64,000 nucleotides of DNA from an uncultured Isosphaeraceae bacterium (GCA_963781785.1 CAWAHD010000003.1:632093-696092); one strand, 5' to 3'. Shown: positions 7,987 to 62,332, counted from the first letter of the stretch. Made by a program: numbers and translations. Notes: generated by a model from the letters alone, not told the origin.

Positions 7987-8241
7987 TCATTCCCCGACGA
8001 ATTGCCTCCGAACCTGCTCATGAGTTTGGAACTGACCGGCATCGATTCGACCGCGGATCTCACGACAATGGGCGCGGAACTTGGGACTCCTCTCAACGAG
8101 GAAATCGATGAGGTCGTCATCGAGGGGGATCACGGCGTAACGCCCCTGACCCTGGGATTCCACTACGATGCCATCGGTGCCTGCGGCCTTGAGGATCTCG
8201 CCGATCGGTGTATTCGGGTCGTCGACAGGCTGTACACTCAT
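7987..8241 (-). CDS. Phd/YefM family antitoxin
   Basis: LVERSPKFRAHCREIRGRIDAGQ aligns to the YefM C-terminus [22 protein letters not shown]; N-terminal half aligns to the YefM core; ATGA overlap with the upstream toxin stop. Confidence 0.65.
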   Translation of the reverse strand: MSVQPVDDPNTPIGEILKAAGTDGIVVESQGQGRYAVIPLDDDLIDFLVERSPKFRAHCREIRGRIDAGQFQTHEQVRRQFVGE

Positions 8242-8522
8242 GGCGATCCTCCGAGGTAATCAATGGAATCCTGCTTGGTGAGGATCTCGACGATGACGAC
8301 GGCTTCTTCTTGGATATCGTAGAACACGCAGAATTCGCCGACACGAAGGCGGTACTGGGTTGGCGAGGGCTCACGGAGCCGCTTGATTCGCGACTTGCTT
8401 GTCAATGTCGGGTTCACACTCAGTATCTGCTCAATTTGATCGAGGATGGTGCTTCGGTCGAAGCCTTTCAACTTCTTGAGTCGCTCGACAGCCTCATTTG
8501 AGTATCGTATCGCGAAGCCCAT
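8238..8522 (-). CDS. RelE/ParE family toxin
   Basis: YRLRVGEFCVFYDIQEEAVVIVEILTKQD is the RelE/ParE C-terminal signature; 94 aa. Confidence 0.75.
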   Translation of the reverse strand: MGFAIRYSNEAVERLKKLKGFDRSTILDQIEQILSVNPTLTSKSRIKRLREPSPTQYRLRVGEFCVFYDIQEEAVVIVEILTKQDSIDYLGGSP

Positions 8523-9186
8523 TCCGCAACTCCCGGCCCACTCTCATTCTAACAGCCTCGTCGAGTCCGACATGCAATTATTTCCGTCCTCGGGCCTGCG
8601 CCTTGGTTGGTGCCCGGCGCCATCGCGATACTCCCCATCCGTCACCCGCCGCGCACCCCCGCTACCCGAGTCGGTCTTGAAATGAGGCGTTCACACCGCT
8701 TCGGATCTGTAAGATCTCCCCGGGGCTTTCTTCCCGACTCGCTGCCTGCTCGTTGCGTAACAAAAACGCTCGGTCGCGAAGCTCGCCCCAGGATGCCTCG
8801 CCCCGGGGCGCCGGGGACCGTGGCAGTCAGAAGTGCGCGGCTTAGCGGGAACCCAGTCGTCGACGAACGGCCGTACGCGGCCACCGGGAGCCAGTCCGCT
8901 GGGATGGGTAACAGATGTCCATCACTATGGATGCGACCGGGGCCGTCTTAGCGTCGCCTAACTTTCTTCTGGGAAATGAGGCATCTCCCATGTTGAGAGC
9001 CCCTTGCGCCCCTACTGATCGAAACCTACCGTACGGTAGCATGGGGAGTTCCGCGCACCACGTTGCATAATTGAAGTATCAAACAATTCGTGCGACGGCC
9101 AGGTCGAGGCCGTCTCTTTCTGTTGCGCACATCCGGTCGGTCCAACCGACCTGTCAATGCACCCCGATCCAGGCGACTGTGTGCTC

Positions 9187-9307
9187 GTAGGACAGGCTTT
9201 CCAGCCTGACGGCCGAGCGTAGGTCAGGCTTTCCAGCCTGACGGCCCAACGCAGGTCAGGCTTTCCAGCCTGACGGCCCAACGTCGGTCAGGCTTTCCAG
9301 CCTGACG
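9187..9307. repeat. Tandem array (4 units, 32-bp period) of a palindromic repeat with core GTAGGTCAGGCTTTCCAGCCTGAC (8-bp stem GTCAGGCT/AGCCTGAC, loop TTCC)
   Basis: Read directly from sequence; same family as 60902..61190. Confidence 0.85.
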
Positions 9308-16389: not shown

Positions 16390-17020
16390 ATGGGACGTCA
16401 TACTGGACCGGTTTGTCGACTTTGCCGCCGCGAAGGGGCCAAGCTTTTCCTGAAGGGAACGCGGTGCGACACGCCCAAGTGCGCCATTGACCATCGCGAC
16501 GGCATGCCCGGCATGCATCAATTCCGCCGCGGCAAGCCCAGTGAATACGCGATCCGGCTGCGCGAGAAACAAAAAGTGAAGCGGTACTACGGAGTTTATC
16601 GAGCGCCAGTTCCGCAAGTACTACGAAGAGGCCACTCGCCGGCCGGGCAACACGGGCGATGCCCTGATGTCGCTTCTGGAGCGGCGGCTCGACAATGTGG
16701 TCACCCGGCTCGGGTTCGCTTCGAGTCGCCCCCAGGCCCGGCAGATGATCACCCACGGGCATATCACGGTCAACGGGCGGAAGCTCGATATCCCCAGCTA
16801 CCTGGTCCGCCCGGGCGACCAGATCCAGATCAAGAACCGCGAACATTCGCGCAAGATGGCCACCGAAAACCTGGCCACCGGCATCAGCCCTCCGGTTCCG
16901 GAGTGGCTGGACCGCATGAGTACCGACCCGCCGGAGGGGCGCGTCAGCCGGTTGCCGTCGGCGCAGGACGTCGGCCTGCCCGTGACACCCCAGTTGATCA
17001 TCGAGTTGTTGAGCCGCTGA
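16390..17020 (+). CDS. rpsD: 30S ribosomal protein S4, disrupted by a 1-nt insertion near 16596 (TTT run)
   Basis: N-terminus [36 protein letters not shown]...KVKRYYGV, then in the +1 frame [61 protein letters not shown]. Confidence 0.85.
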
Positions 17021-42986: not shown

Positions 42987-43059
42987 GCCCCCATCGTCTA
43001 GCGGCCTAGGATACTTGGTTCTCAGCCAAGGGACCGGGGTTCGAGTCCCCGTGGGGGTG
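42987..43059 (+). tRNA. tRNA-Glu (anticodon CUC)
   Basis: Manual cloverleaf: acceptor GCCCCCA/TGGGGGT, D-arm TCGTCTAGCGGCCTAGGATAC (near-identical to E. coli tRNA-Glu), anticodon stem CTTGG/CCAAG, loop TTCTCAG, T-arm CGGGG-TTCGAGT-CCCCG. Confidence 0.85.
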
Positions 43060-53173: not shown

Positions 53174-54229
53174 TCAGAAGCCGAGACCCTTGGTCGAGAG
53201 GCGAACGCGGCCGATGTACATGTCGGCCGTGATATAGAGAACCGACCCGTCGCCACCCCAGCCGCAGTTGGCCGTCGCCTGGCCCGTGCTGAAGGTGCCG
53301 AGATGGGTCCCGTCCGGTGCGAACACCAGGACGCCGCCAGGCCCAGTCGCGAACAGGTTACCGGCGACATCGACTTTCATGCCGTCGGGCAACCCTTTCT
53401 TCGTCGAGGTTTCGCTGGTCGTATCGGCGAACACACGCCCCTCGCCGAGCATGCCGTCACCTTTGACCGGGAAGGCCATCCAGATCGCTCGCTTGGGGTC
53501 TGAGTTTGCCACGTACAGAGTTTTCTCATCAGGCGAAAACGCGATCCCGTTGGGGAAAGTGAGCTCCCTGGTAAGCAAAGTCAGAGTACCGTCGGCCGCG
53601 GAGAGCCGGTACACGCCATTGAAATCAAGCTCCTTGGCCCGATCCTGATTGTTCTTGATGAGACCATAAGGCGGATCGGTGAAATAGAGGTCGCCGTTGG
53701 ACTTGAAGACGCCGTCGTTGGGGCTGTTGAGCCGCTTTCCCATGTACTCGCTGGCCAGGGTCGTGAACTTCCCGTCAGACTCGAGGCGAGCGACTCGGCG
53801 GTCTCCATGCTGGCACAGCACCAAGCGGCCCTGCCGGTCCATGAGCAGACCATTCGAGCCAGGCTCGCCACCGCGCGGGACCGAGCCGGTGTAGCCACTG
53901 GGCTTGAGGAAAACGCTGGCTCCCTTGCCTTCCTCCCACTTGAAGACCGTGTTAAGCGGAACGTCCGAAAACAACAGAAAATGATTTGCCCGGTCCCAGA
54001 CGGGTCCTTCGGACCAGTCGAACCCATCGGCGATGCGTTCGACCCGCGCATCCTTGGGGACGAGCCGGTCGAAGCGCGGCTCGATCCGCTCGATCGTGCC
54101 GAGGGTGGGCAGCTCGGTTTTCACCTGGGCCGTCGCTTGCTGAACTCCAAGGCCAAGCCACGCGCCAAGGGTCAAGGCGGCGAATGCCGCACAGCCAGGC
54201 AATCTGCGTTCTGATCGGTGTCTCTTCAT
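53174..54229 (-). CDS. SMP-30/gluconolactonase/LRE family protein, secreted
   Basis: Signal peptide; DGFDWSEGPVWD...NSPNDGVF...FPNGIAFSPDEKTLYVA six-bladed propeller motifs. Confidence 0.75.
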   Translation of the reverse strand: MKRHRSERRLPGCAAFAALTLGAWLGLGVQQATAQVKTELPTLGTIERIEPRFDRLVPKDARVERIADGFDWSEGPVWDRANHFLLFSDVPLNTVFKWEEGKGASVFLKPSGYTGSVPRGGEPGSNGLLMDRQGRLVLCQHGDRRVARLESDGKFTTLASEYMGKRLNSPNDGVFKSNGDLYFTDPPYGLIKNNQDRAKELDFNGVYRLSAADGTLTLLTRELTFPNGIAFSPDEKTLYVANSDPKRAIWMAFPVKGDGMLGEGRVFADTTSETSTKKGLPDGMKVDVAGNLFATGPGGVLVFAPDGTHLGTFSTGQATANCGWGGDGSVLYITADMYIGRVRLSTKGLGF

Positions 54230-54385
54230 GATGACCAGGTCCCGGAGCCGCCAATCGATCGTCGGACGAAGCCACCCGCCCCGCCACCCGATTACTTACG
54301 TTATCTCGCGCCGGCCGCCCGAGCAACGATCCACTGCGTGCAATCGGCTCGGTGGCCCCAGCCCGGTTCGAGCCGATCCTACCAG

Positions 54386-55581
54386 TCAAGCGGTCCTTGC
54401 GGTCATGTCCTTCTTGTGCAGTTCGCCGGCAAGCTCGTCGAAACAATCAAGCAAGGCGCGCGCCGAACGGTCCCAGGAGAACAAGCTCGACTGCTCTCGG
54501 GCCAAGCCGGCCAGCTCGTGACGAAGGGCCGGATCACCCATGAATGAACGAATGGCCTGCGCGATCGAGCCGATGTCGTTGGGGTCGAAGTAGACGCCGG
54601 CACGGCCCACAACTTCGGGCAACGAACCGGCCAGGCTCGAGAGGACCGGCGTGCCGCAGGCCATTGCCTCGACCGCCGGCAGTCCGAATCCTTCCAGGAG
54701 CGAAGGCAGCACCAGAGCACTTGCACGGCTATAGAGGAAGACGAGATCTTCGTCCGGCACAAATCCCGTCATGATCACGCGGTCGTTCAAGTGATGCCTT
54801 GCGATCGCCGAGCGGATCTGCGGCACGTGGGTATGGAATACGTCATGAATGTCGCCCGTGAGCACGAGCCTTGTCTCTGCCGGTGCCGATTGGGCAAACG
54901 CATCGACCAGCCGGAGCAGGTTTTTATGCGGGCTCAAGCCGCCGACGTACAGCAGGAAAGGCGCGTCTTGCGGGATGGCCAGGCGATCGAGTACAGCGCC
55001 GGCGCGGAAATCGTCGCCCCGGGGCTGAAAGATCGGATCGGGTCCTTCCGTGATCACGGCAATCTTCCGATCGGGCCAGCCTGACCATGCCGAGATGGCG
55101 CGGCGGGACGCTTGGGAGACGGTCACGAGCCGGTCGGCCCGGCGAACCGCGGCTCCTTCCTTGAGCCGCCACGCAAGCCGGCCTGCAAGCGTCGGAAAGA
55201 CGAGATCGGGATGAGTGAAGGGCAGCGTGTCGTGCATGGTCACGACGACCTTGGCGACGTTCCAGACGGGGAAGTAGCTGTAAGTCGCCGGAAAGTACAT
55301 GAGGTCGATCCCGGACCGAGCGACTGCAAAACTCATCGCGAGCAAGTCGCGCCATCCCCGCCGGCCGCTGGCCGACGCCGCCTGGCTGGCGCTTCCCGGA
55401 CGTCGACCACGACCCGGCTGAACGCCGCCGGGATGGAGACATCGGCCGCGGAGGGACGATCGATGAAGACAGTGAAACGATGACTGGCCGGCTGATGCGA
55501 AAGCGCTTCGAGCAGCAGTCGAGCAAAGCGACCAAACCCGCGGCGATTCGACAGACAGCTTCCGTCGATTCCTATTCTCAT
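54386..55581 (-). CDS. glycosyltransferase family 4 (GT-B), frameshifted near 55340 (ORFs 55333..55626 and 54386..55345)
   Basis: N-terminus MRIGIDGSCLSNRRGFGRF; C-terminal EGFGLPAVEAMACGTPV motif. Confidence 0.7.
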
Positions 55582-55629
55582 GACCGGGCTCTCGTGCGGG
55601 CCGTATTGATCGTGCGACGGACTCACAGA

Positions 55630-56786
55630 CTATCGCGCTTTAGCTCTCCAGCGTGCCAGCCCGAGCGGCCGCCTCGCGGCCGCCGGCTTGGGGATCGATC
55701 GGGCGCCCTTGTCCGTTCGTTCGCGCGAGGCACTTCGAATCGTGTCCGTGGGGCGCTTCTGTGCGAGCCAGTAAAACTGGGCGATCAACACCGACAACCC
55801 GCAGCAGCAGTAGTAGAGACAGTGGAGAGGTACGGCGGCGACTGTCAACGCAAAGCCTCCGCGGCGGGCGAAGAGTCGAAAGAGATCAAAGTTCAAGCCG
55901 ACGATTGCCGCCAGGCCGGCGGGCACGCCGATCGAGGCGAGTGGCAAGAGCGGGGAGCAAAGGCCAGCCAGCAGTGTCAGGCCGGTCACAGCCACGCACG
56001 CTTTCTGGCGGCGGCTGACGTTGAGGTCGGATTCCAGCGTGCCGGTTCGCTTGATCAGGAGCATCCAGGGAACACCACGGCGAAAGACGTCGGTGCGCAC
56101 CATCTCGAACAGGGTCCACCGCTTGAGGTGGGTCGCCAGAACGTCGCGCCCAGGACAATTTGGTGGCCGGCGCGGGTCAGGCGGTAGCCCAGCTCGATAT
56201 CCTCGATGGCAGGACGGGGATATAACCGAGGGTCGAACCCGCCAAATTCGAGAAACGCCTCGCGGCGGATGATTCCACAGCCGGTCCAGAAAGTATGGGC
56301 AGGTCGGATTCCGCCGTGGAACGTCCCCTGCTGGTGGACGAAGTGATGGAGCAGATTCCGGTACTGGCTGACAACTCCCGGGGCGGCTGGGTAATCGTCG
56401 TACGACCCGAACAAAGCGGTGAGCGCCGGCTCGGCCTCGAACCGGGCCAGGGCAAGCCCCAGAGTTTCCGGGTGCACGGCCACGTCGGCATCGAGGAAGA
56501 AGATCAACGGTGATGCGGCAGCCCGGGCGCCCAGATTGCGGGCAGCCGCTGGACCTCGCGGCGTCGGAACCCGGACCACGACGGCCCCCGCCTGGAGCGC
56601 CAGAGATCCCGAGTCGTCGGTCGAGCCGTCATCAACGACGATCAGCTCGAAATCGGAGAGGAGCGAAGCGCGAAGCCGCTGGAGGCAGCGCTCGAAGTCG
56701 CGGCCACCGTTTCGCACGGGGACCACGACCGAGAGCGACGGCCTCCGCAGCGCCGGGCTCGCCGGACCGGCGGGGACGTCGTCCAT
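55630..56786 (-). CDS. glycosyltransferase family 2 with C-terminal membrane domain; frameshifted near 56080
   Basis: SVVVPVRNGG...IVVDDGSTDDS...FLDADV GT2 motifs; C-terminal TM region in ORF 55630..56103. Confidence 0.7.
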
Positions 56787-57098
56787 GATTGACCCTCGCC
56801 CGTCAATTCTCGACACGCGCCGGAATGCGCCTCCATCCGTGGGATCGCCCAAACGCGCACCGATACAGCATTGCGGCAAAACGGGGCGAATAATCGCCGC
56901 GAGAAGGTCGAGGTGTCGCGTCCAGCCGCGCCGCCGCAAGACTGTCGCGACGAGCCGGCGAACTCTATCCTGAACGCCCAGGTCTGTCAATCTGGCCCGG
57001 AGTCCCCGTTCGTCGACAAACGTGCATTCGCGACTTCGGACCGACGCGCGATCCCTCCACGAATTGGGTTCAACAGCCGGGACCGACCCTCACCGGAG

Positions 57099-57848
57099 TC
57101 ACGGCGGGTCCGTACGCTGCCTCATGAACGGACGGCAATAATTCAGAAGACTCAAGTCGCTCAATTCTTCCTCGAGATCGTTCTGAGTGGGGCAGCTCAG
57201 GCTGGCCAGCACTTCTGCTAGTAAAAAGTTAACATATTTGCGTCTCGATCGCTGGAGGGCCTGCCGCACGGCTCCGGGAGAGAGGGGCCGGCCGAGCGTG
57301 ACGGCCAGTCGCTCGGCAAGCTGGCCGGAGGACAGCTCGGGATGGTCGACCCGGAATCGGAGCACCGTGTTATAAGGCTGGCCGGTGCTCTTCTCGAGAG
57401 CCGACAGCGAACTCCAGGCACGATCCAAAAGGTCGGTCCGCCAGCTCTCGAGAAACTGCCGCTCGAATTGCGCGGGCCCGTCGTCATCGACGCCGGGCTC
57501 TGTGCCCCCCGAGTTTCTCAACCGGTCTGATCGCTTGCGCCGGTGATAGTCATTGATCAGATTCTGGACGGCACGCTTCACGTAGTCGCGAAAGCGGCCT
57601 CGCTTGGGGTCGGCATGACGAAAGCTGCCCTGGAGGAACCGCACCGCGAATTCCTGGTCAAGCTCGGCAGCGGCATCAGGATCTTTGAGCGCCTTGAGCA
57701 AGTAGCGATGGACGGCTCCGGAATAACGGCACATCAGCTCGGAGACCGCAACGTTCATCTTGCCCGGCTTACCAGAATGGGCCTCGAACACCATGGTCCA
57801 GTGAGTCGACAAGTCGCTGAGCAACGGTTCCGATTCGACGTGTTCCAC
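57099..57848 (-). CDS. ECF-like sigma-70 family sigma factor (planctomycete-type, 249 aa)
   Basis: Region-2-like FRDYVKRAVQNLINDYHRRK and region-4-like HTH LSSGQLAERLAVTLGRPLSPGAVRQALQRSRRKYVNFL. Confidence 0.65.
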   Translation of the reverse strand: MEHVESEPLLSDLSTHWTMVFEAHSGKPGKMNVAVSELMCRYSGAVHRYLLKALKDPDAAAELDQEFAVRFLQGSFRHADPKRGRFRDYVKRAVQNLINDYHRRKRSDRLRNSGGTEPGVDDDGPAQFERQFLESWRTDLLDRAWSSLSALEKSTGQPYNTVLRFRVDHPELSSGQLAERLAVTLGRPLSPGAVRQALQRSRRKYVNFLLAEVLASLSCPTQNDLEEELSDLSLLNYCRPFMRQRTDPP

Positions 57849-58125
57849 GATTCACGCTCCGGCACCGAAGGGTTTCCACGGGAGAGGAGTTCGGTCGAGA
57901 TCCGAGTTCGAGCCAGCCGGCACCTGTCATTTTACACGTGGCGATCAAGGGCTTGCAAAAGCACGAAGCCCAAAAAAATCGCTGGGGTCGCGCAAGACAG
58001 GCGCCCCACTTGCCCGTATGAGAGAGCGGAATGGTTGAAAGACAGCGGGCCGCGGCGAGTTCGGTGAAGCCGGACCAGCGACCCTAGCGGAAGCCAAGAG
58101 ACGGATCCCGTTATCGAGGCTGGTC

Positions 58126-59166
58126 ATGAACGGTACTTTTCCTTGTCTTATGCGGTCATACACTCCCATGCCCATCGACGAAATGCCGAAGACTGAAGTC
58201 GCCTGGCACGCACTGCTCAATCGCCCGGAGGCCCGAGTTCTGGACGCGACGGAGGAACGCGAGCTGTTGATCGAGCTGATCGATCACCGCACCCAGCTTT
58301 TCGCCTGTCTGGGCCAGACCAGTGAGCAGGATTGGGGCACTCCGGGCGGGGAACTGGAATTTCAGCAACGAGTGCGCGAGCTGGCCAGCCCGATCACCCC
58401 CCTCGATCCCGCCTGCGCCGCGGCTGTACCCGTGGCACGTCGGTATCAGGAGCTCAGGACCAAACTGGCGATGGCCAATGTGCGCCTGGTCGCCCACGTC
58501 GCCAAGCGATACCACGGCCGGGGGATCCCGCCCGGCGACCTGATCCATGAAGGAGTCTGCGGCCTGCTCTCGGCGATCGACCGATTCGATCTCATGAACG
58601 ATACCCGTCTGGCCACCTACGCGATCTGGTGGATCCGCCAGGGCATTCAGCGCGCCATTGCCAACGGAGCGTATCCGGTTCGATTGAACCCCAGGCAGCT
58701 TCACCAGTTGGCGAGAGCCCAGAATGAGCCGGACGGAGCGGACAGCCCGTCTGTGCCCATGACCAGAGCACGGGTCGATCAACCGGGCGGGATGTGTTCG
58801 CAAACCTACGAGCGTCTGCTCATGGCCACGCGGCCCACACTTTCCCTCGATGCACCCCGAGGCTGGAACGGCAGCCGGTCGCTCGTCGACTACTTCCAGG
58901 CCCACAACGACGACGAGCCACCCCAAGAAGACATGGGCGAGTGCGTGGGAGACATGATCAAGATGCTCAATCCTCGCGAGCAGTACGTGCTCAAGCTGCG
59001 GTTTGGCCTGGCCGGCGCGACACCTCATACCCTCGTCCAGGTCAGTCGGACGCTGGGTGTTTCCAAGGAGCGAATTCGCCAGATCCAGGCTCGCGCAATC
59101 AGCAAGCTTCGAAATTCGCCGCTGGCACGGTCTCATCGAAGACTAGCCGAAGCCGCGGCCGTGTGA
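58126..59166 (+). CDS. sigma-70 family RNA polymerase sigma factor (group 3-like; regions 2, 3, 4); start uncertain
   Basis: Region 2 RLVAHVAKRYHGRGIPPGDLIHEGVCGLLSAIDRFD...TYAIWWIRQGIQRAI; region 4 LNPREQYVLKLRFGL...LVQVSRTLGVSKERIRQIQARAISKLR. Confidence 0.75.
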   Translation: MNGTFPCLMRSYTPMPIDEMPKTEVAWHALLNRPEARVLDATEERELLIELIDHRTQLFACLGQTSEQDWGTPGGELEFQQRVRELASPITPLDPACAAAVPVARRYQELRTKLAMANVRLVAHVAKRYHGRGIPPGDLIHEGVCGLLSAIDRFDLMNDTRLATYAIWWIRQGIQRAIANGAYPVRLNPRQLHQLARAQNEPDGADSPSVPMTRARVDQPGGMCSQTYERLLMATRPTLSLDAPRGWNGSRSLVDYFQAHNDDEPPQEDMGECVGDMIKMLNPREQYVLKLRFGLAGATPHTLVQVSRTLGVSKERIRQIQARAISKLRNSPLARSHRRLAEAAAV

Positions 59167-59321
59167 TCACGCCGAGACAGCCCGAAGGGCCGCGGCGTGA
59201 ACAGAGTGAAGCCAGAAGCCTGATTGATGGGTACTGGCTCGAAGGGGGCTGAGGCGACGTCGCCTCCCCCCCGAGAGCCAGGTGTGAACAGGGACGATCG
59301 CACCGGGCTCGACTCCACGAT

Positions 59322-60422
59322 CTATGCCCCGGCAGCATCAGGGCCGCCTCCGTTTCGCTCGCGCTCGAGAATGAGCCGGTCAAAGCCATGGAGGAGCATT
59401 TCGCGGGGCGAATAGGGCCCGGATCGATAGGCGCACGAAGAAAGGCCAAGCTGCATCTGTTCGCAGACGTACCAGTCTTGACGATTCGTCAAGTCCCAGA
59501 ACGTCACCGCGTCGTCGGGGTCGAAATCGGACGCGGCGATCGCGTCGGGGTGAAACAGCCATTCGCACACAATCTCGGTACGGTCGACTGCACGCGGCCA
59601 GAGGCTGTGAGTCAGCACATAATCCGGATGCAGGCTGAGCAGCAAATTCGGCAGGAACGCGTAGAAGTAAACGTAGCGGCAATCTTGAGCGGTCAGTCCC
59701 GGCAAGCAACAGCGGCGCAGCCGGCCGTCAGACGACATGGTGTCAATCCCTTCACGCAAAAGCATTCGGCCCCCGAGATAGCTCGATTCGGCGGGCTCAT
59801 TCACGCCGCTCAGGTAGTGCGATAGCTTCTGGAGCTGCGGGTGAACTCCCGGGCAATGCAGACACTCGGAATAATTGTGGATGATCAGCTTCCAGTTGGC
59901 GGCGACGTCGTAAGCGACGCGCTTGCCGAGCTTGAGCCCGTCCATTCCCCAGGCGCGGAACCGCTCGTCCATGCCGTTGAGCTGCCGTGAGAGCGGCGCA
60001 GGTTTCTCCGCCAGGTTGAGGAACAAATTCCCGTCCCAGATACTGGCGGCGACCGCCTGGAGCGGGTAATCCTCGAGCCGAAAATTGGCGACGCCCTCCA
60101 TCTGCGGGGCAGCCACCAGGCAGCCGCCCAGGTTGTAGGTCCACGCGTGGTAAGGACATTGAATGGTCGCCGCGAACCGTCCCGATCGCTGGGCGACCAG
60201 CCGGGTTCCCCGGTGGCGGCAAACGTTGCAATACGCTCGGATACTGCCAGAATTGTCGCGGACGACGATCAGGCTCTCGCCGGCGATCTCGCGCACAACG
60301 AAGTCGCCGGGACCAGGGATCTCGTCGGCCCGGCCGGCATGAAACCACGCGCCACGGAAGAATGAATCGAGCTCGGCGTGGTAATGACGGTCGTCGATGT
60401 AATATCGGGCGGGCAGGCTCAT
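59322..60422 (-). CDS. Rieske [2Fe-2S] domain oxygenase (ring-hydroxylating dioxygenase alpha-subunit-like)
   Basis: Rieske motif CNVCRHRG...CPYHAW; C-terminal catalytic-domain-like region. Confidence 0.7.
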   Translation of the reverse strand: MSLPARYYIDDRHYHAELDSFFRGAWFHAGRADEIPGPGDFVVREIAGESLIVVRDNSGSIRAYCNVCRHRGTRLVAQRSGRFAATIQCPYHAWTYNLGGCLVAAPQMEGVANFRLEDYPLQAVAASIWDGNLFLNLAEKPAPLSRQLNGMDERFRAWGMDGLKLGKRVAYDVAANWKLIIHNYSECLHCPGVHPQLQKLSHYLSGVNEPAESSYLGGRMLLREGIDTMSSDGRLRRCCLPGLTAQDCRYVYFYAFLPNLLLSLHPDYVLTHSLWPRAVDRTEIVCEWLFHPDAIAASDFDPDDAVTFWDLTNRQDWYVCEQMQLGLSSCAYRSGPYSPREMLLHGFDRLILERERNGGGPDAAGA

Positions 60423-60901
60423 CGCGGCAGGTTCTTGCGCACTCAAGAGATGATCCTCCCCGCCTGCATGAACAGAACTCGCGCTTGTGGCACCGATCCG
60501 AGATCCGGAAGCCGAATCGTCGAAAAGCGGACGGCTCGGATCCACGATGGGAGATTCTAAGTCCGGAACGCGGAATCGGGAATCGGGCAAGGTGTCGAAC
60601 CGACATTTTTCGGGCAAACACCTCGGCCGCCTGGCATCGCGGCGGCGCCGAGATGGTCGCACTGGCCGTGTCGCCGGTTAGAGTTTCTTGCCTGGCAAGT
60701 GCCATTTTGGCAGTTGGGTTCGTTTCGCAATTTTTGGTACCCCGATCGCGTCAGGAAGCGCGCCATTCTGGCAGTTGGATTCGGTCGGCGCCGTCGGCGC
60801 GGTGGGCATTGTGACGATTAATCGGAATCGGTCGATTCACGTCGCAGTTGGAAACAACGACGCGACACACGGCTAGACAGCCGGGTCTTTTGTAGGTCAG
60901 G

Positions 60902-61190
60902 CTTTCGAGCCTGACGGTTCGAGAGTAGGTCAGGCTTTCCAGCCTGACGGTTCGAGAGTAGGTCAGGCTTTCGAGCCTGACGGTTCGAGGGTAGGTCAGG
61001 CTTTCCAGCCTGACGGTTCGAGGGTAGGTCAGGCTTTCCAGCCTGACGGTTCGAGAGTAGGTCAGGCTTTCGAGCCTGACGGTTCGAGAGTAGGTCAGGC
61101 TTTCCAGCCTGACGGTTCGAGAGTAGGTCAGGCTTTCGGGCCTGACTCTTTGGGATGTCAGGCTGGAAAGCCTGACCTACGGGAATCGAA
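60902..61190. repeat. Tandem array of 8 direct copies (33-bp period) plus 1 inverted copy of palindromic repeat GTAGGTCAGGCTTTC(C/G)AGCCTGACGGTTCGAG(A/G)
   Basis: Read directly; units abut without spacers; variation confined to the hairpin loop (TTCC/TTCG) and linker; same family as 9187..9307. Confidence 0.85.
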
Positions 61191-61335
61191 TGGGGGCCCG
61201 GGCCCGGCAACAGTTCTAGCCACCTCTCGGGCCATTGTTCGGAAACGCGAGGTTCGAAAGCGCGCAAAGTCGCGCGAACCACCGAAAGCGCCAAAAACTG
61301 CCTCGTTGCCTTAACTACCTATGATAATTGCAGTT

Positions 61336-61574
61336 GCGCCATGTCGTTGGAATAATCGGAACATGAAGGCCCGTTATAACTCTTGAGCTGGATTACACTT
61401 GCACATGTCGTTGGAATAATCGGAAATCTCGGGTTCGTTGCCACATCTCCTTACTAAGAAATCACTTGGCGCATGTCGTTGGAATAATCGGAACTTGATA
61501 GCGAAAATCGGGTGTTTCTGCCACATCTCCTTACCAAATCGTGAGATAGCGCATGTCGTTGGAATAATCGGAAC
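61336..61574 (+). repeat. CRISPR-like mini-array: 4 direct repeats of ~27-35 nt (core GCGCATGTCGTTGGAATAATCGGAAC) separated by 38/41/53-nt spacers; no cas genes in the window
   Basis: Repeats at 61336, 61401, 61468, 61548; spacers 2 and 3 share a 15-nt motif (GCCACATCTCCTTAC), which is atypical for CRISPR. Confidence 0.4.
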
Positions 61575-61711
61575 AGGCCATTCAACCGGCGTTCGAGGGC
61601 TTGTCCGTCGTCGGTTACGAAATTGTTCCCGTTCGCAGCCCGTTGATCGCCTGTCGGCGGCCTTTTGGCCGCCGGCGACGCTGATAGACCGCGCGGTTCG
61701 CATTCGTTGTT

Positions 61712-62332
61712 TCAGTCCGCGTCGAAAACCGCGCTCACGGCGACCGAGAATCCTGCCAACAACACCGATGCCGCCGTATCCCCGCGCCGGTAGACTCCGG
61801 CTTCCTCGTAAGCCTCCCCGCTCAGACGGAGAATCGTGATGGTTTCGGTCTGCGGGTTGACGATCCAGTATTCCGGGACGCGGCCCTCGGCATAGTCGCC
61901 CCGCTTGTCCACCAGATCTCGTTCCGGCTTCTCTTCGCTCACGACTTCCAGGGCGAGGTCGGCGCCCAGCCAGAAACGGTTCTGCCGGCGCGGATCGGCG
62001 GCTTTGAGCAGCAACAGAACATCGGGTTCACGGAATTTGCCCTCCCGGATTCGCAGCCGGAGTGGAGCAAAATGGACTTTGCCGCCCTGGGGCTGCACAA
62101 AGTTGAACAAAGCAAGAAACAAGAACTGGAGGACGCTCTGGTGCTTGTCGGTAGGCATTGGCAGCGCTTCCAGAAAGCCGTCTGTGAACTCGACCAGCCG
62201 GCTCCGGCAGTCGGTCAAGACGAGATACTCCTCGTCGCTCCATTGCCCCTGGGGCGGAAGGAGTTCCTCGAGCAGATCCTTCCATTCCTGGGCAGGCGGA
62301 AGCGTGGTCGCGAGCTCGGGCACAGTCGCCAT
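61712..62332 (-). CDS. Uma2 family endonuclease (DUF820, PD-(D/E)xK nuclease-like)
   Basis: QWSDEEYLVLTDCRSRLVEFTDGFLEALPMPTDKHQSV...EPDVLLLL...YWIVNPQTETITILRL matches Uma2 family topology. Confidence 0.75.
   Translation of the reverse strand: MATVPELATTLPPAQEWKDLLEELLPPQGQWSDEEYLVLTDCRSRLVEFTDGFLEALPMPTDKHQSVLQFLFLALFNFVQPQGGKVHFAPLRLRIREGKFREPDVLLLLKAADPRRQNRFWLGADLALEVVSEEKPERDLVDKRGDYAEGRVPEYWIVNPQTETITILRLSGEAYEEAGVYRRGDTAASVLLAGFSVAVSAVFDAD

What the first reader, a model, noticed from the sequence alone, without database searches (positions are those of the whole stretch)
9187..9307. Dispersed family of palindromic 32/33-bp tandem repeats (REP-like) at two loci 51.6 kb apart
The core GTAGGTCAGGCTTTCCAGCCTGAC (8-bp stem, 4-nt loop) is tandemly repeated 4 times at 9187-9307 with linker GGCCCAAC. 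It is repeated 8 times plus one inverted copy at 60902-61190 with linker GGTTCGAGA. The units abut with no spacers. Variation is confined to the loop (TTCC/TTCG) and the linker. That pattern argues for a conserved hairpin structure rather than coding, although a minus-strand ORF would translate the second array as an 11-aa repeat (KPDLLSNRQAG). The arrays lie in long intergenic gaps next to accessory genes (a TA module and an upstream hypothetical; a Uma2 gene and a CRISPR-like array). Candidate roles are transcription attenuation or termination, RNA stabilisation, a recombination hot spot, or a protein-binding array.
Basis: seen in the sequence. Interest (0 to 1): 0.55.

Follow-up and report, generated by a model that had tools for sequence, protein, structure and literature searches.

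The report
Planctomycete REP palindrome clusters
The two repeat arrays are clusters of a classic bacterial "REP" element, a short GTAG-tagged DNA hairpin that is spread by a dedicated tyrosine transposase (RAYT). This is an ordinary kind of genomic repeat, and the one unusual point is that this sequence is almost unchanged across the whole phylum Planctomycetota.

Summary
The unit GTAG + GTCAGGCT-TTCS-AGCCTGAC occurs 13 times in the window against 0.01 expected. Four are head-to-tail copies at 9187-9306 (32-bp period). Eight are head-to-tail copies at 60892-61146 (33-bp period), followed by one inverted copy at 61157-61180.

The unit has the anatomy of a GTAG-tagged REP: a 5' GTAG at the foot of an 8-bp stem with a 4-nt loop. 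The exact 20-mer occurs in more than 118 stretches from about 75 species-level genomes. Nearly all are Planctomycetota, from at least seven families. Most copies lie between genes, usually as inverted "GTAG-outside" doublets.

In all four RAYT loci examined in other planctomycetes, the Y1/HUH transposase gene is flanked on both sides by this same hairpin. One of them also carries 8 tandem copies plus inverted copies. Of 120 RAYT homologues, 37 end in REP-encoded residues.

The 158-aa minus-strand ORF is an artefact. No RAYT lies in this window. Array B is absent from a syntenic relative. The neighbouring "CRISPR-like" array is not CRISPR.

Verdict: a new member of a known kind (a REP/RAYT system), and only moderately interesting.

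The parts
9187..9306 (+). Array A: four head-to-tail REP units with a 32-bp period. Each unit is tag + GTCAGGCT-TTCC-AGCCTGAC + an 8-nt linker (GGCCGAGC, then GGCCCAAC twice). The tags are GTAG, GTAG, GCAG, GTCG. Unit 1 has a stem mismatch (GACAGGCT). There is no inverted partner.
60892..61146 (+). Array B: eight head-to-tail REP units with a 33-bp period. All carry a GTAG tag. The loops read TTCG, TTCC, TTCG, TTCC, TTCC, TTCG, TTCC, TTCGGG. The linker is GGTTCGAGA or GGTTCGAGG.
61157..61180 (-). One inverted REP copy (GTAGGTCAGGCTTTCCAGCCTGAC on the minus strand).
61123..61180 (.). Terminal inverted ("GTAG-outside", head-head) REP doublet with a 10-nt spacer. This is the arrangement that dominates in other planctomycete genomes.
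60818..61294 (-). A 158-aa ORF that reads through array B (KPDLLSNRQAG repeats). It is judged a non-coding artefact of the 33-bp (3 x 11) period.
   Evidence: GC3 is 0.56 against 0.66-0.88 for the window's called ORFs. Arrays elsewhere have periods of 31, 32 and 37 bp. The Pfam BH3 match has no individually significant stretch.

Best explanation
Both arrays are clusters of a GTAG-tagged REP (repetitive extragenic palindrome). The 24-nt unit is GTAG followed by an 8-bp stem and a 4-nt loop.

As single-stranded DNA, this unit is the kind of substrate that a REP-associated tyrosine transposase (RAYT/TnpAREP, an HUH-Y1 enzyme) recognises by its hairpin and its 5' GTAG guide. The enzyme cleaves and rejoins there, which disseminates and maintains the element across the chromosome. 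That step is inferred by homology to E. coli TnpAREP.

The window holds only non-autonomous copies. Each array most likely arose locally, by tandem amplification of one REP together with its own 8-9-nt 3' flank. The route would be slippage, unequal exchange or repeated RAYT cut-and-rejoin. In array B the amplification started from a pre-existing inverted doublet. This origin is inferred from the array-specific linkers and from the recurrence of (G-loop, A-linker)(C-loop, A-linker) pairs, which suggests 66-bp duplications.

Any effect on neighbouring genes, such as stabilising or blocking transcripts, would be secondary.
For: **Anatomy**
- The unit is a 5' GTAG directly at the foot of an 8-bp stem with a 4-nt loop. 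This matches the definitions in PMC3733652 and PMC6006769.
- Among perfect or near-perfect consensus hairpins in 118 loci, the tag is GTAG in 164 of 210 and GTAC in 25.

**Dispersal**

**Arrangement**
- Of 131 clusters, 82 are inverted doublets with GTAG outside, and none is a simple GTAG-inside doublet. Spacers run 1-101 nt with a mode of 11.

**Structure under constraint**
- The compensated stem GTCAGCCT/AGGCTGAC occurs 16 times. GTCGGGCT/AGCCCGAC also occurs.
- There are 15 double-sided changes against 3.8 expected, reached by 0 of 500 shuffles.

**Cognate transposase**
- L089 6632-7294 encodes a Y1_Tnp protein (Pfam E = 8e-9). Three tandem REPs lie directly upstream and six lie over and after its stop codon.
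- Three further homologues (L119, L120, L121) are each flanked on both sides by the same REP. L120 has 8 head-to-tail copies at a 37-bp period plus 2 inverted copies, the same architecture as array B.
- Of 120 homologues, 37 carry exact REP-encoded peptides such as RSGFPA* and VGQAFQPD, almost all at the C-terminus.
- Of 120 homologues, 115 keep the NH(V)H, WQ and YIENNP motifs.
- The best NCBIfam model is the REP-associated tyrosine transposase, and the only PDB match is E. coli TnpAREP 4ER8.

**Location**
- By a crude gene call, 105 of 121 classifiable clusters are intergenic.

**Local origin of the arrays**
- The linkers differ between arrays A and B, L089 and L120.
- The array-B linker junction has no exact match in the metagenome collection.
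- Array B is missing from a syntenic relative.
Against: - No RAYT gene lies in the 64-kb window. Whether the source genome has one could not be checked.
- The RAYT homologues score just under NCBIfam's curated cut-off (65-79 bits against 80), and only their C-terminal two-thirds align.
- No cleavage or transposition has been shown for this family. The enzymology is borrowed from E. coli.
- Doublet spacers vary in length and sequence, unlike the conserved spacers of Pseudomonas REPINs.
- In array A, three of the four units depart from the consensus. Two have mutated tags (GCAG, GTCG) and one has a stem mismatch, so that array may be an inactive relic.
- The covariation signal rests mainly on one base pair. 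It comes from copies related by descent and from loci chosen because they carry the consensus.
Confidence: 0.85

Rival explanations
1. The hairpins are primarily host regulatory RNA elements. They would act as transcription terminators or attenuators, or as 3' stabilisers of mRNA, and would be kept by selection on gene expression rather than by a transposase.
For: - Each unit folds into a stable hairpin of -13.7 kcal/mol, and the arrays have fold z-scores of -4.9 to -10.9.
- In co-directional intergenic gaps, the clusters sit a median of 11-17 nt after the upstream gene's stop, against 46-77 nt from the next start.
- REPs in other bacteria are reported to terminate transcription and to stabilise mRNA (PMC6006769 background).
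Against: - No T-run follows the hairpins, and the terminator scan flags none of them.
- Clusters fall in co-directional, convergent and divergent gaps in the same proportions as all gaps: 59/20/21% against 58/22/20%.
- Both window arrays lie upstream of the nearest start codon. Array A is 96 nt before the 9403 ORF, and array B is 446 nt before the Rieske gene start.
- A generic terminator would not need an invariant 24-nt sequence with an asymmetric GTAG tag, and it would not bracket RAYT genes.
- This reading is compatible with the main one as a secondary role.
Confidence: 0.1
2. Array B encodes a real protein with 11-residue repeats (the 158-aa ORF at 60818-61294 on the minus strand).
For: - The ORF is open for 158 codons.
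- Pfam reports BH3 at 31.5 bits.
Against: - GC3 is 0.56, below the window's overall GC (0.63) and far below the called ORFs (0.66-0.88).
- The same unit forms arrays with periods of 32 bp (array A), 31 bp (L089) and 37 bp (L120), which cannot keep a reading frame.
- The BH3 match has zero stretches that pass on their own, so it is a repeat artefact.
- The array is absent in the syntenic relative.
Confidence: 0.02
3. The palindrome is a double-stranded operator, bound as a symmetric site by a conserved dimeric regulator or nucleoid protein. The arrays would then be binding-site clusters.
For: - The core is a near-perfect 20-bp palindrome that is very strongly conserved.
- E. coli REP/BIMEs are known to bind IHF, gyrase and Pol I (PMC6006769 background).
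Against: - The element is asymmetric. The GTAG tag sits on one side only, and the loop orientation (TTCC against GGAA) is strictly kept relative to the tag.
- Stem variants are compensatory, which preserves pairing rather than a fixed half-site.
- Placement shows no link to promoters.
Confidence: 0.04
4. The doublets are miniature inverted-repeat transposable elements (MITEs) of a DDE-type insertion sequence, with the 24-nt unit serving as the terminal inverted repeat.
For: Most copies occur as inverted pairs with the conserved ends facing outward.
Against: - Internal segments run from 1 to 101 nt and share no sequence, and flanks were not examined for target-site duplications.
- Singletons and head-to-tail arrays are common.
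- The only transposase repeatedly found next to the repeat is a Y1/HUH enzyme, not a DDE enzyme.
Confidence: 0.02

Closest known systems
GTAG-tagged REP super-family (Di Nocera, De Gregorio and Rocco 2013, PMC3733652). It includes the Rhodopirellula baltica families GTAG-20 and GTAG-21.
   Same: - A 5' GTAG tag at the foot of a short G+C-rich hairpin (stems of 6-9 bp are typical).
- Singletons, head-head dimers and "grouped" clusters.
- A mostly extragenic location.
- REPs that flank or overlap the ends of RAYT genes.
- Complementary stem variants that define sub-families.
   Different: - The sequence differs from the R. baltica families, whose REP-encoded peptides are SRIRQEF, VTGFARIR and RSVVLHR. 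Here the peptides are VGQAFQPD, RSGFPA and VRLESLTY.
- The exact sequence was not found in the paper library.
- Head-to-tail runs are described there as rare, but they recur in this family (window arrays A and B, L089, L120).
- The head-head dimers here have variable spacers, whereas the paper's rule of thumb is conserved spacers for that type.
E. coli REP/BIME with TnpAREP (RayT/YafM; structure 4ER8)
   Same: - A hairpin with a 5' GTAG guide.
- An HUH-Y1 enzyme with HxH, WQ and Y(I)xxNP motifs and a DWP(W/F)S tail. This is the only solved structure matched.
- A REPtron layout, with the gene bracketed by its own REPs.
   Different: - The match to the E. coli protein is weak (E = 1.4e-4, covering only 99 of 221 residues).
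- The planctomycete protein is about 219 aa, with roughly 100 extra N-terminal residues that do not align.
- The hairpin is shorter and simpler: 8 perfect pairs and no bulge.
- No Y/Z alternation and no IHF-type linker motifs of BIMEs were seen.
REPIN-RAYT systems of Pseudomonas fluorescens (Bertels and Rainey 2011, as cited in PMC3733652 and PMC6006769)
   Same: - The inverted REP doublet is the dominant form.
- The doublet is linked to a RAYT gene.
- Singletons plausibly derive from decayed doublets.
   Different: - Spacers here are not conserved (1-101 nt), so the doublet as a whole is not an obviously conserved replicating unit.
- The REP sequence here is shared across families and classes of a phylum, rather than being specific to a species or genus.
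- The RAYT motif signature (NHVH / WQ / YIENNP) fits Quentin's subclass 2.4 or 2.7 rather than Pseudomonas subclass 2.5. This is a comparison of motifs only, with no tree built.

Membership tests
REP, GTAG type (PMC3733652; PMC6006769) | A GT[AG]G tetranucleotide lies 0-2 nt 5' of the foot of a hairpin. | tested here: met
   GTAG lies directly at the foot in 11 of the 13 window copies. The exceptions are GCAG and GTCG in array A. In the loci, 164 of 210 consensus hairpins have GTAG and 25 have GTAC.
REP, GTAG type | A short, fully paired stem (about 6-13 bp) with a small loop (2-5 nt). | tested here: met
   The stem is 8 bp and the loop is 4 nt (TTCC or TTCG), folding at -13.7 kcal/mol. 92% of cells are paired across 80 distinct variants.
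REP, GTAG type | The operational RNAMotif filter of Quentin 2018 for short hairpins requires at least 3 G/C among the first four basal stem bases. | tested here: not met
   The basal stem GTCA has 2 G/C of 4, although the whole stem is 62% G+C. This is a search heuristic rather than a biological definition. It may explain why this family was not picked up automatically in that study.
REP, GTAG type | Many dispersed, mainly extragenic copies within a genome. | tested here: inconclusive
   The window has 2 clusters in 64 kb. The 118 loci (832 kb) hold 130 clusters, and 105 of 121 classifiable clusters are intergenic.
REP, GTAG type | Copies are often paired in inverted orientation (HH or TT dimers). 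| tested here: met
   82 of 131 clusters are GTAG-outside doublets. The window has one such doublet at 61123-61180.
REPtron (REP plus its cognate RAYT) | A Y1/HUH RAYT gene is flanked by the same REP. | tested here: met
   This holds in 4 of 4 RAYT loci from other planctomycetes: L089, L119, L120 and L121. 37 of 120 homologues carry REP-encoded peptides, almost all at the C-terminus. It does not hold inside this window, which has no RAYT.
RAYT / TnpAREP protein family | An HUH motif, a catalytic Tyr in Y-x-x-x-NP, a WQ motif, and a score above the curated family threshold. | tested here: inconclusive
   All three motifs are present in 115 of 120 homologues. Pfam Y1_Tnp is above its cut-off (36-45 bits against 23). 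NCBIfam NF047646 is the best model but scores 65-79 bits against a cut-off of 80. PDB 4ER8 is the only structural relative.
RAYT / TnpAREP protein family | The enzyme binds and cleaves the single-stranded GTAG hairpin. | not testable with these tools
   This needs biochemistry with the purified planctomycete protein.
REPIN (Bertels and Rainey) | Two inverted REPs separated by a conserved spacer, replicating as one unit. | tested here: not met
   Spacers run 1-101 nt and share no sequence. 52 of 82 doublets have arms that differ, and 16 of the variant arms are the compensated GTCAGCCT/AGGCTGAC stem.
CRISPR array | Direct repeats separated by unique spacers of similar length. | tested here: not met
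   The units abut, with a constant 8-9-nt linker and no spacers. cas genes were not searched for.
Intrinsic (Rho-independent) terminator | A G+C-rich hairpin followed by a T/U run. | tested here: not met
   None of the REP hairpins is followed by a T-run, and the scans flag only unrelated hairpins at 9094, 60662 and 60870.
Any curated RNA family (Rfam 15) | A score at or above the family's gathering threshold. | tested here: not met
   The whole window matches only a tRNA at 42987. Permissive scans of both loci give only chance hairpin matches at 17-25 bits, against thresholds of 56-100 bits.

The most novel reading that the evidence does not exclude
This REP and its RAYT may form one ancient partnership, inherited mostly vertically and present across Planctomycetota, both Planctomycetia and Phycisphaerae. 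The 24-nt hairpin would then have stayed essentially frozen while the enzyme diverged to about 60-70% identity. That would imply unusually tight co-constraint, for example a host-level job for the RAYT-hairpin pair. It would be among the most widely conserved REP families described.
Probability: 0.3. Interest if true: 0.55.

Novelty: new member of a known kind. Interest (0 to 1): 0.3.

Why it matters
**For annotation**
- These 24-nt units generate spurious ORFs. Peptides such as VGQAFQPD, RSGFPA, QAGKPDL and VRLESLTY appear in predicted proteins, and the array ORF even draws a false Pfam BH3 call.
- Recognising the repeat lets annotators mask it in planctomycete genomes and MAGs.

**For biology**
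- REP/RAYT systems have been studied almost entirely in Proteobacteria.
- This family has an intact, divergent RAYT clade: more than 1000 homologues, with catalytic motifs kept in 115 of the 120 examined.
- Its REP is nearly identical in Gemmataceae, Isosphaeraceae, Pirellulaceae, Lacipirellulaceae, Planctomycetaceae, Thermoguttaceae and Tepidisphaeraceae.
- That gives a tractable case for asking how long a REP-RAYT pair can persist, whether it spreads vertically or horizontally, and how head-to-tail arrays form.

For this particular window, the arrays are ordinary non-autonomous copies. Array B sits in a variable region.

Tried and rejected
- **Coding repeat protein.** Rejected on GC3, on array periods that cannot hold a frame, and on the spurious Pfam match.
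- **CRISPR, or a known RNA family.** Rejected because there are no spacers and nothing passes in Rfam.
- **Classical terminator.** Rejected because no T-tract follows the hairpins.
- **RAYT inside the window.** tblastn with the L084 RAYT protein found nothing in the window (best E = 8). My first L089 query was translated in the wrong frame, so only the L084 result counts, together with a motif scan that also found nothing.
- **Identifying the source record.** Exact-protein look-ups for five window proteins found no record. The cluster look-up gave no name. All that is known is an 890,839-bp NCBI/ENA contig whose ArgRS relatives are labelled Isosphaerales or Isosphaeraceae.
- **Finding the same arrays elsewhere.** Metagenome scans for the left boundary of array B and for its linker junction gave 0 hits.
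- **Phage carriage.** Only 2 of 2.9 million viral contigs hold the 24-mer.
- **Nine loci from four MAGs labelled Alcaligenaceae, Actinomycetota or proteobacterium.** A Pfam scan of their largest ORFs was not taxonomically informative, so mis-binning against real spread outside the phylum is unresolved.
- **L084's second, more canonical RAYT** (NF047646 at 118 bits). No copy of this REP lies adjacent to it, and I did not identify its own repeat.
- **Literature.** The exact sequence gives no hits. Searches for RAYT or REPIN with planctomycetes return only the two general surveys.

Full report
**1. The observation**

Reading the sequence and running Tandem Repeats Finder confirm two arrays.
- Array A lies at 9186-9307 (period 32, 3.8 copies, score 209).
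- Array B lies at 60892-61146 (period 33, 7.7 copies, score 461).

The 20-nt core GTCAGGCTTTCCAGCCTGAC, with up to 3 mismatches, occurs 13 times. Dinucleotide-preserving shuffles give 0.01.
- Four copies are in array A.
- Eight are direct copies in array B.
- One is an inverted copy at 61157-61176.

A relaxed search and a generic scan for GTAG hairpins find no further copy and no second family in the 64 kb.

- In array A the four bases before the stem are GTAG, GTAG, GCAG and GTCG. Unit 1 has a stem mismatch.
- In array B all eight units carry GTAG, and unit 8 reads TTCGGG.
- The last direct copy and the inverted copy form an inverted doublet with a 10-nt spacer. It folds into a long hairpin at -79 kcal/mol, z = -10.9.
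- Loop and linker variants in array B recur as (G-loop, A-linker)(C-loop, A-linker) pairs at units 1-2 and 6-7. This suggests 66-bp duplications.

**2. What the unit is**

They come from about 75 assemblies.
- 109 of the 118 are labelled as Planctomycetota lineages: Gemmataceae, Isosphaeraceae, Pirellulaceae and Pirellulales, Lacipirellulaceae, Planctomycetaceae, and Tepidisphaeraceae of class Phycisphaerae.
- Nine loci from four MAGs carry other labels. I could not resolve whether these are mis-binned.

In these 832 kb I found 130-131 clusters.
- 82 are inverted doublets, always in the order [GTAG-stem-TTCC-stem] spacer [stem-GGAA-stem-CTAC]. The GTAG tag faces outward on both arms.
- No simple doublet has the tag facing inward.
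- Spacers run from 1 to 101 nt (mode 11) and share no sequence.
- A minority variant tag, GTAC, appears on both arms of the same doublet.

The unit is therefore GTAG plus an 8-bp stem and a 4-nt loop. That is the published definition of a canonical GTAG-tagged REP (Di Nocera et al. 2013, PMC3733652; Quentin et al. 2018, PMC6006769). The doublets are the "head-head" dimers of that literature.

The stem shows compensatory variants.
- GTCAGCCT/AGGCTGAC occurs 16 times.
- GTCGGGCT/AGCCCGAC and a few others also occur.
- On 80 distinct variants, 92% of cells pair. There are 15 double-sided changes against 3.8 in shuffles, reached by 0 of 500 shuffles.
- The caveat is that the copies are related by descent, the loci were chosen for carrying the consensus, and most of the signal comes from one base pair.

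**3. The link to a transposase**

A motif scan of all ORFs in the loci found two HUH/Y1 proteins. Both match Pfam Y1_Tnp.

The L089 gene (6632-7294) is a textbook REPtron.
- Three head-to-tail REPs at a 31-bp period end 22 nt before its ATG.
- Six REPs start inside its last codons and supply its stop codon.

This protein has more than 1000 homologues at E <= 1e-10.
- The best 120 are 53-88% identical, and most are 59-70%.
- Several are named RayT or transposase from Planctomycetota, Planctomycetaceae or Thermoguttaceae.

I fetched DNA for three of them, L119, L120 and L121.
- In every case the gene is bracketed on both sides by this same REP.
- L120 has eight head-to-tail copies at a 37-bp period followed by two inverted copies upstream, and twelve more copies downstream. 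This is the architecture of window array B.

Without needing DNA, 37 of the 120 homologues contain exact REP-encoded peptides, almost all at the C-terminal end (…RSGFPA*, …VGQAFQPD…). Many others carry near-matches.

The enzyme looks intact and is a genuine but divergent RAYT.
- 115 of 120 keep the NH(V)H, WQ and YIENNP motifs.
- The best NCBIfam model is "REP-associated tyrosine transposase", just under its cut-off at 65-79 bits against 80.
- The only solved relative is E. coli TnpAREP, 4ER8.
- The motif signature fits Quentin's class 2 (subclass 2.4 or 2.7). It does not fit the class 3 enzymes that paper associates with Planctomycetes. This is a motif comparison only.

**4. Context in the window**

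The window has 62.8% G+C. Its ArgRS is 100% identical to a protein on an 890,839-bp NCBI/ENA contig. The nearest named relatives are Isosphaerales or Isosphaeraceae at 78-81% and Paludisphaera at 74%.

No RAYT lies in the window.

Array A:
- It sits about 660 nt from the 5' end of a ParE-type toxin gene (8238-8522, minus strand).
- It sits 96 nt upstream of a 648-aa ORF with no family match.

Array B:
- It sits 446 nt upstream of a Rieske oxygenase gene. Relatives call this gene at 374 aa, which places it at 59322-60446.
- It sits about 530 nt downstream of a Uma2 gene.

A relative with about 80% nucleotide identity (L124) is syntenic from 53690 to 60472. Synteny then stops, and that locus has no REP anywhere in its 13 kb. 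Array B, the adjacent repeats and the Uma2 gene therefore lie in a variable segment.

The array-B linker junction and its left boundary have no exact match in the metagenome collection. Linkers also differ between every array seen: GGCCCAAC, GGTTCGAGA, GTCAGCC, AGGGGTCGCCAAT.

I infer that each array grew locally by tandem amplification of one REP plus its own flank. For array B this started from an inverted doublet.

**5. Rivals**

- **Coding repeat protein.** The ORF at 60818-61294 has GC3 of 0.56, against 0.66-0.88 for the window's called ORFs. It is open only because 33 is a multiple of 3. The same unit forms arrays of 31, 32 and 37 bp elsewhere. Its Pfam BH3 "hit" has no significant stretch.
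- **Classical terminator.** No T-tract follows the hairpins.
- **Regulatory element.** By a crude GC3-based gene call, clusters fall in co-directional, convergent and divergent gaps in the same proportions as all gaps. In co-directional gaps, though, they sit close behind the upstream stop codon, at a median of 11-17 nt. A secondary RNA role is therefore possible but not indicated as the reason the family exists.
- **Symmetric double-stranded operator.** This does not fit the one-sided tag, the fixed loop orientation or the compensatory stems.
- **DDE-type MITE.** This does not fit the unrelated 1-101-nt interiors or the Y1 enzyme.
- **Known RNA family.** Rfam has nothing.

**6. Known or new**

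REPs, their GTAG tag, head-head dimers, grouped clusters, REPtrons and REPs that overlap RAYT gene ends are all established (PMC3733652, PMC6006769). GTAG REPs have been reported in one planctomycete, Rhodopirellula baltica.
- The REP-encoded peptides listed for those R. baltica families differ from the ones here.
- The exact sequence is absent from the paper library.
- Targeted searches return only the two general surveys.
- The basal stem GTCA fails the G+C filter used for automated REP detection in the 2018 survey.

I therefore file it as a new member of a known kind. The one feature a specialist might find notable is that the 24-mer is essentially identical across families and two classes of a phylum, while its enzyme has diverged to about 60-70% identity. 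Whether that reflects ancient vertical inheritance or horizontal spread was not testable here.

**7. Limits**

- The source genome could not be scanned, so neither its copy number nor its RAYT is known.
- The loci were ascertained on the consensus 20-mer, which inflates apparent conservation.
- Gene contexts rest on a home-made ORF caller.
- The enzymology is inferred from E. coli TnpAREP.

Noticed in passing
window 61337-61573: There are four copies of a 25-nt repeat, GCRCATGTCGTTGGAATAATCGGAA, at start-to-start spacings of 64, 68 and 80 nt. Three of them share about 40 nt of similar upstream sequence. The irregular spacing and the related sequences between copies argue against CRISPR. No copy occurs in the 118 planctomycete loci, and two sigma-70-like -10 matches fall inside the repeats. 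What it is remains unexplained.
   Followed up: partly
window 60701-60783: There are two copies of a 22-nt repeat, GCCATTYTGGCAGTTGGRTTCG, 61 nt apart. They lie between the Rieske gene start and array B.
   Followed up: no
window 60472-62332, compared with L124 5560-6000: Synteny with an ~80%-identical relative ends just upstream of the Rieske gene. The 1-kb repeat-rich gap (array B and the two other repeat families) and the Uma2 gene are replaced there by a DUF1573 gene. This marks a variable region or rearrangement breakpoint.
   Followed up: partly
window 16390-17020: rpsD looks frameshifted. The N-terminal S4 domain is in the frame that starts at 16390, and the C-terminal S4 domain is in a different frame (ORF 16667-17020). 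The first frame runs on without a stop into rpoA, giving a 558-aa ORF. This is probably an assembly indel, which suggests the contig carries some indel errors.
   Followed up: partly
P0001-P0120 (RAYT homologues), C-termini: The conserved tail of these RAYTs, …W-P-x-G-Q-P-F/Y…, resembles the REP-encoded VGQAFQPD. The end of the gene may derive from an ancient overlapping REP.
   Followed up: no
L119 1-2253 and 248-338; L119 6451-6660: Three REPs lie inside a called MmeI-type methyltransferase gene. The RAYT REPtron sits between that gene and a BrxL-like gene, a BREX-like defence neighbourhood. By my crude gene call, about 13% of REP clusters (16 of 121) fall inside long ORFs.
   Followed up: partly
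L084 3859-4377: A second, more canonical RAYT occurs in a planctomycete MAG (NCBIfam NF047646 at 118 bits, 37% identical to the L089 enzyme). It is not flanked by this REP. Its own repeat, if it has one, was not identified.
   Followed up: partly
window 60818-61294 (minus strand): Pfam reports Beclin-1 BH3 (PF15285) at 31.5 bits, above its cut-off, for the REP-array ORF. No individual stretch is significant. This is a false positive caused by summing weak matches over the 11-aa repeat.
   Followed up: yes
L010, L021, L035, L098, L099, L115, L116, L080, L110: Nine REP-bearing loci come from four MAGs labelled Alcaligenaceae, proteobacterium or Actinomycetota. Their G+C (59-67%) resembles that of planctomycetes. 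Whether this is mis-binning or mislabelling, or real spread outside the phylum, is unresolved.
   Followed up: partly
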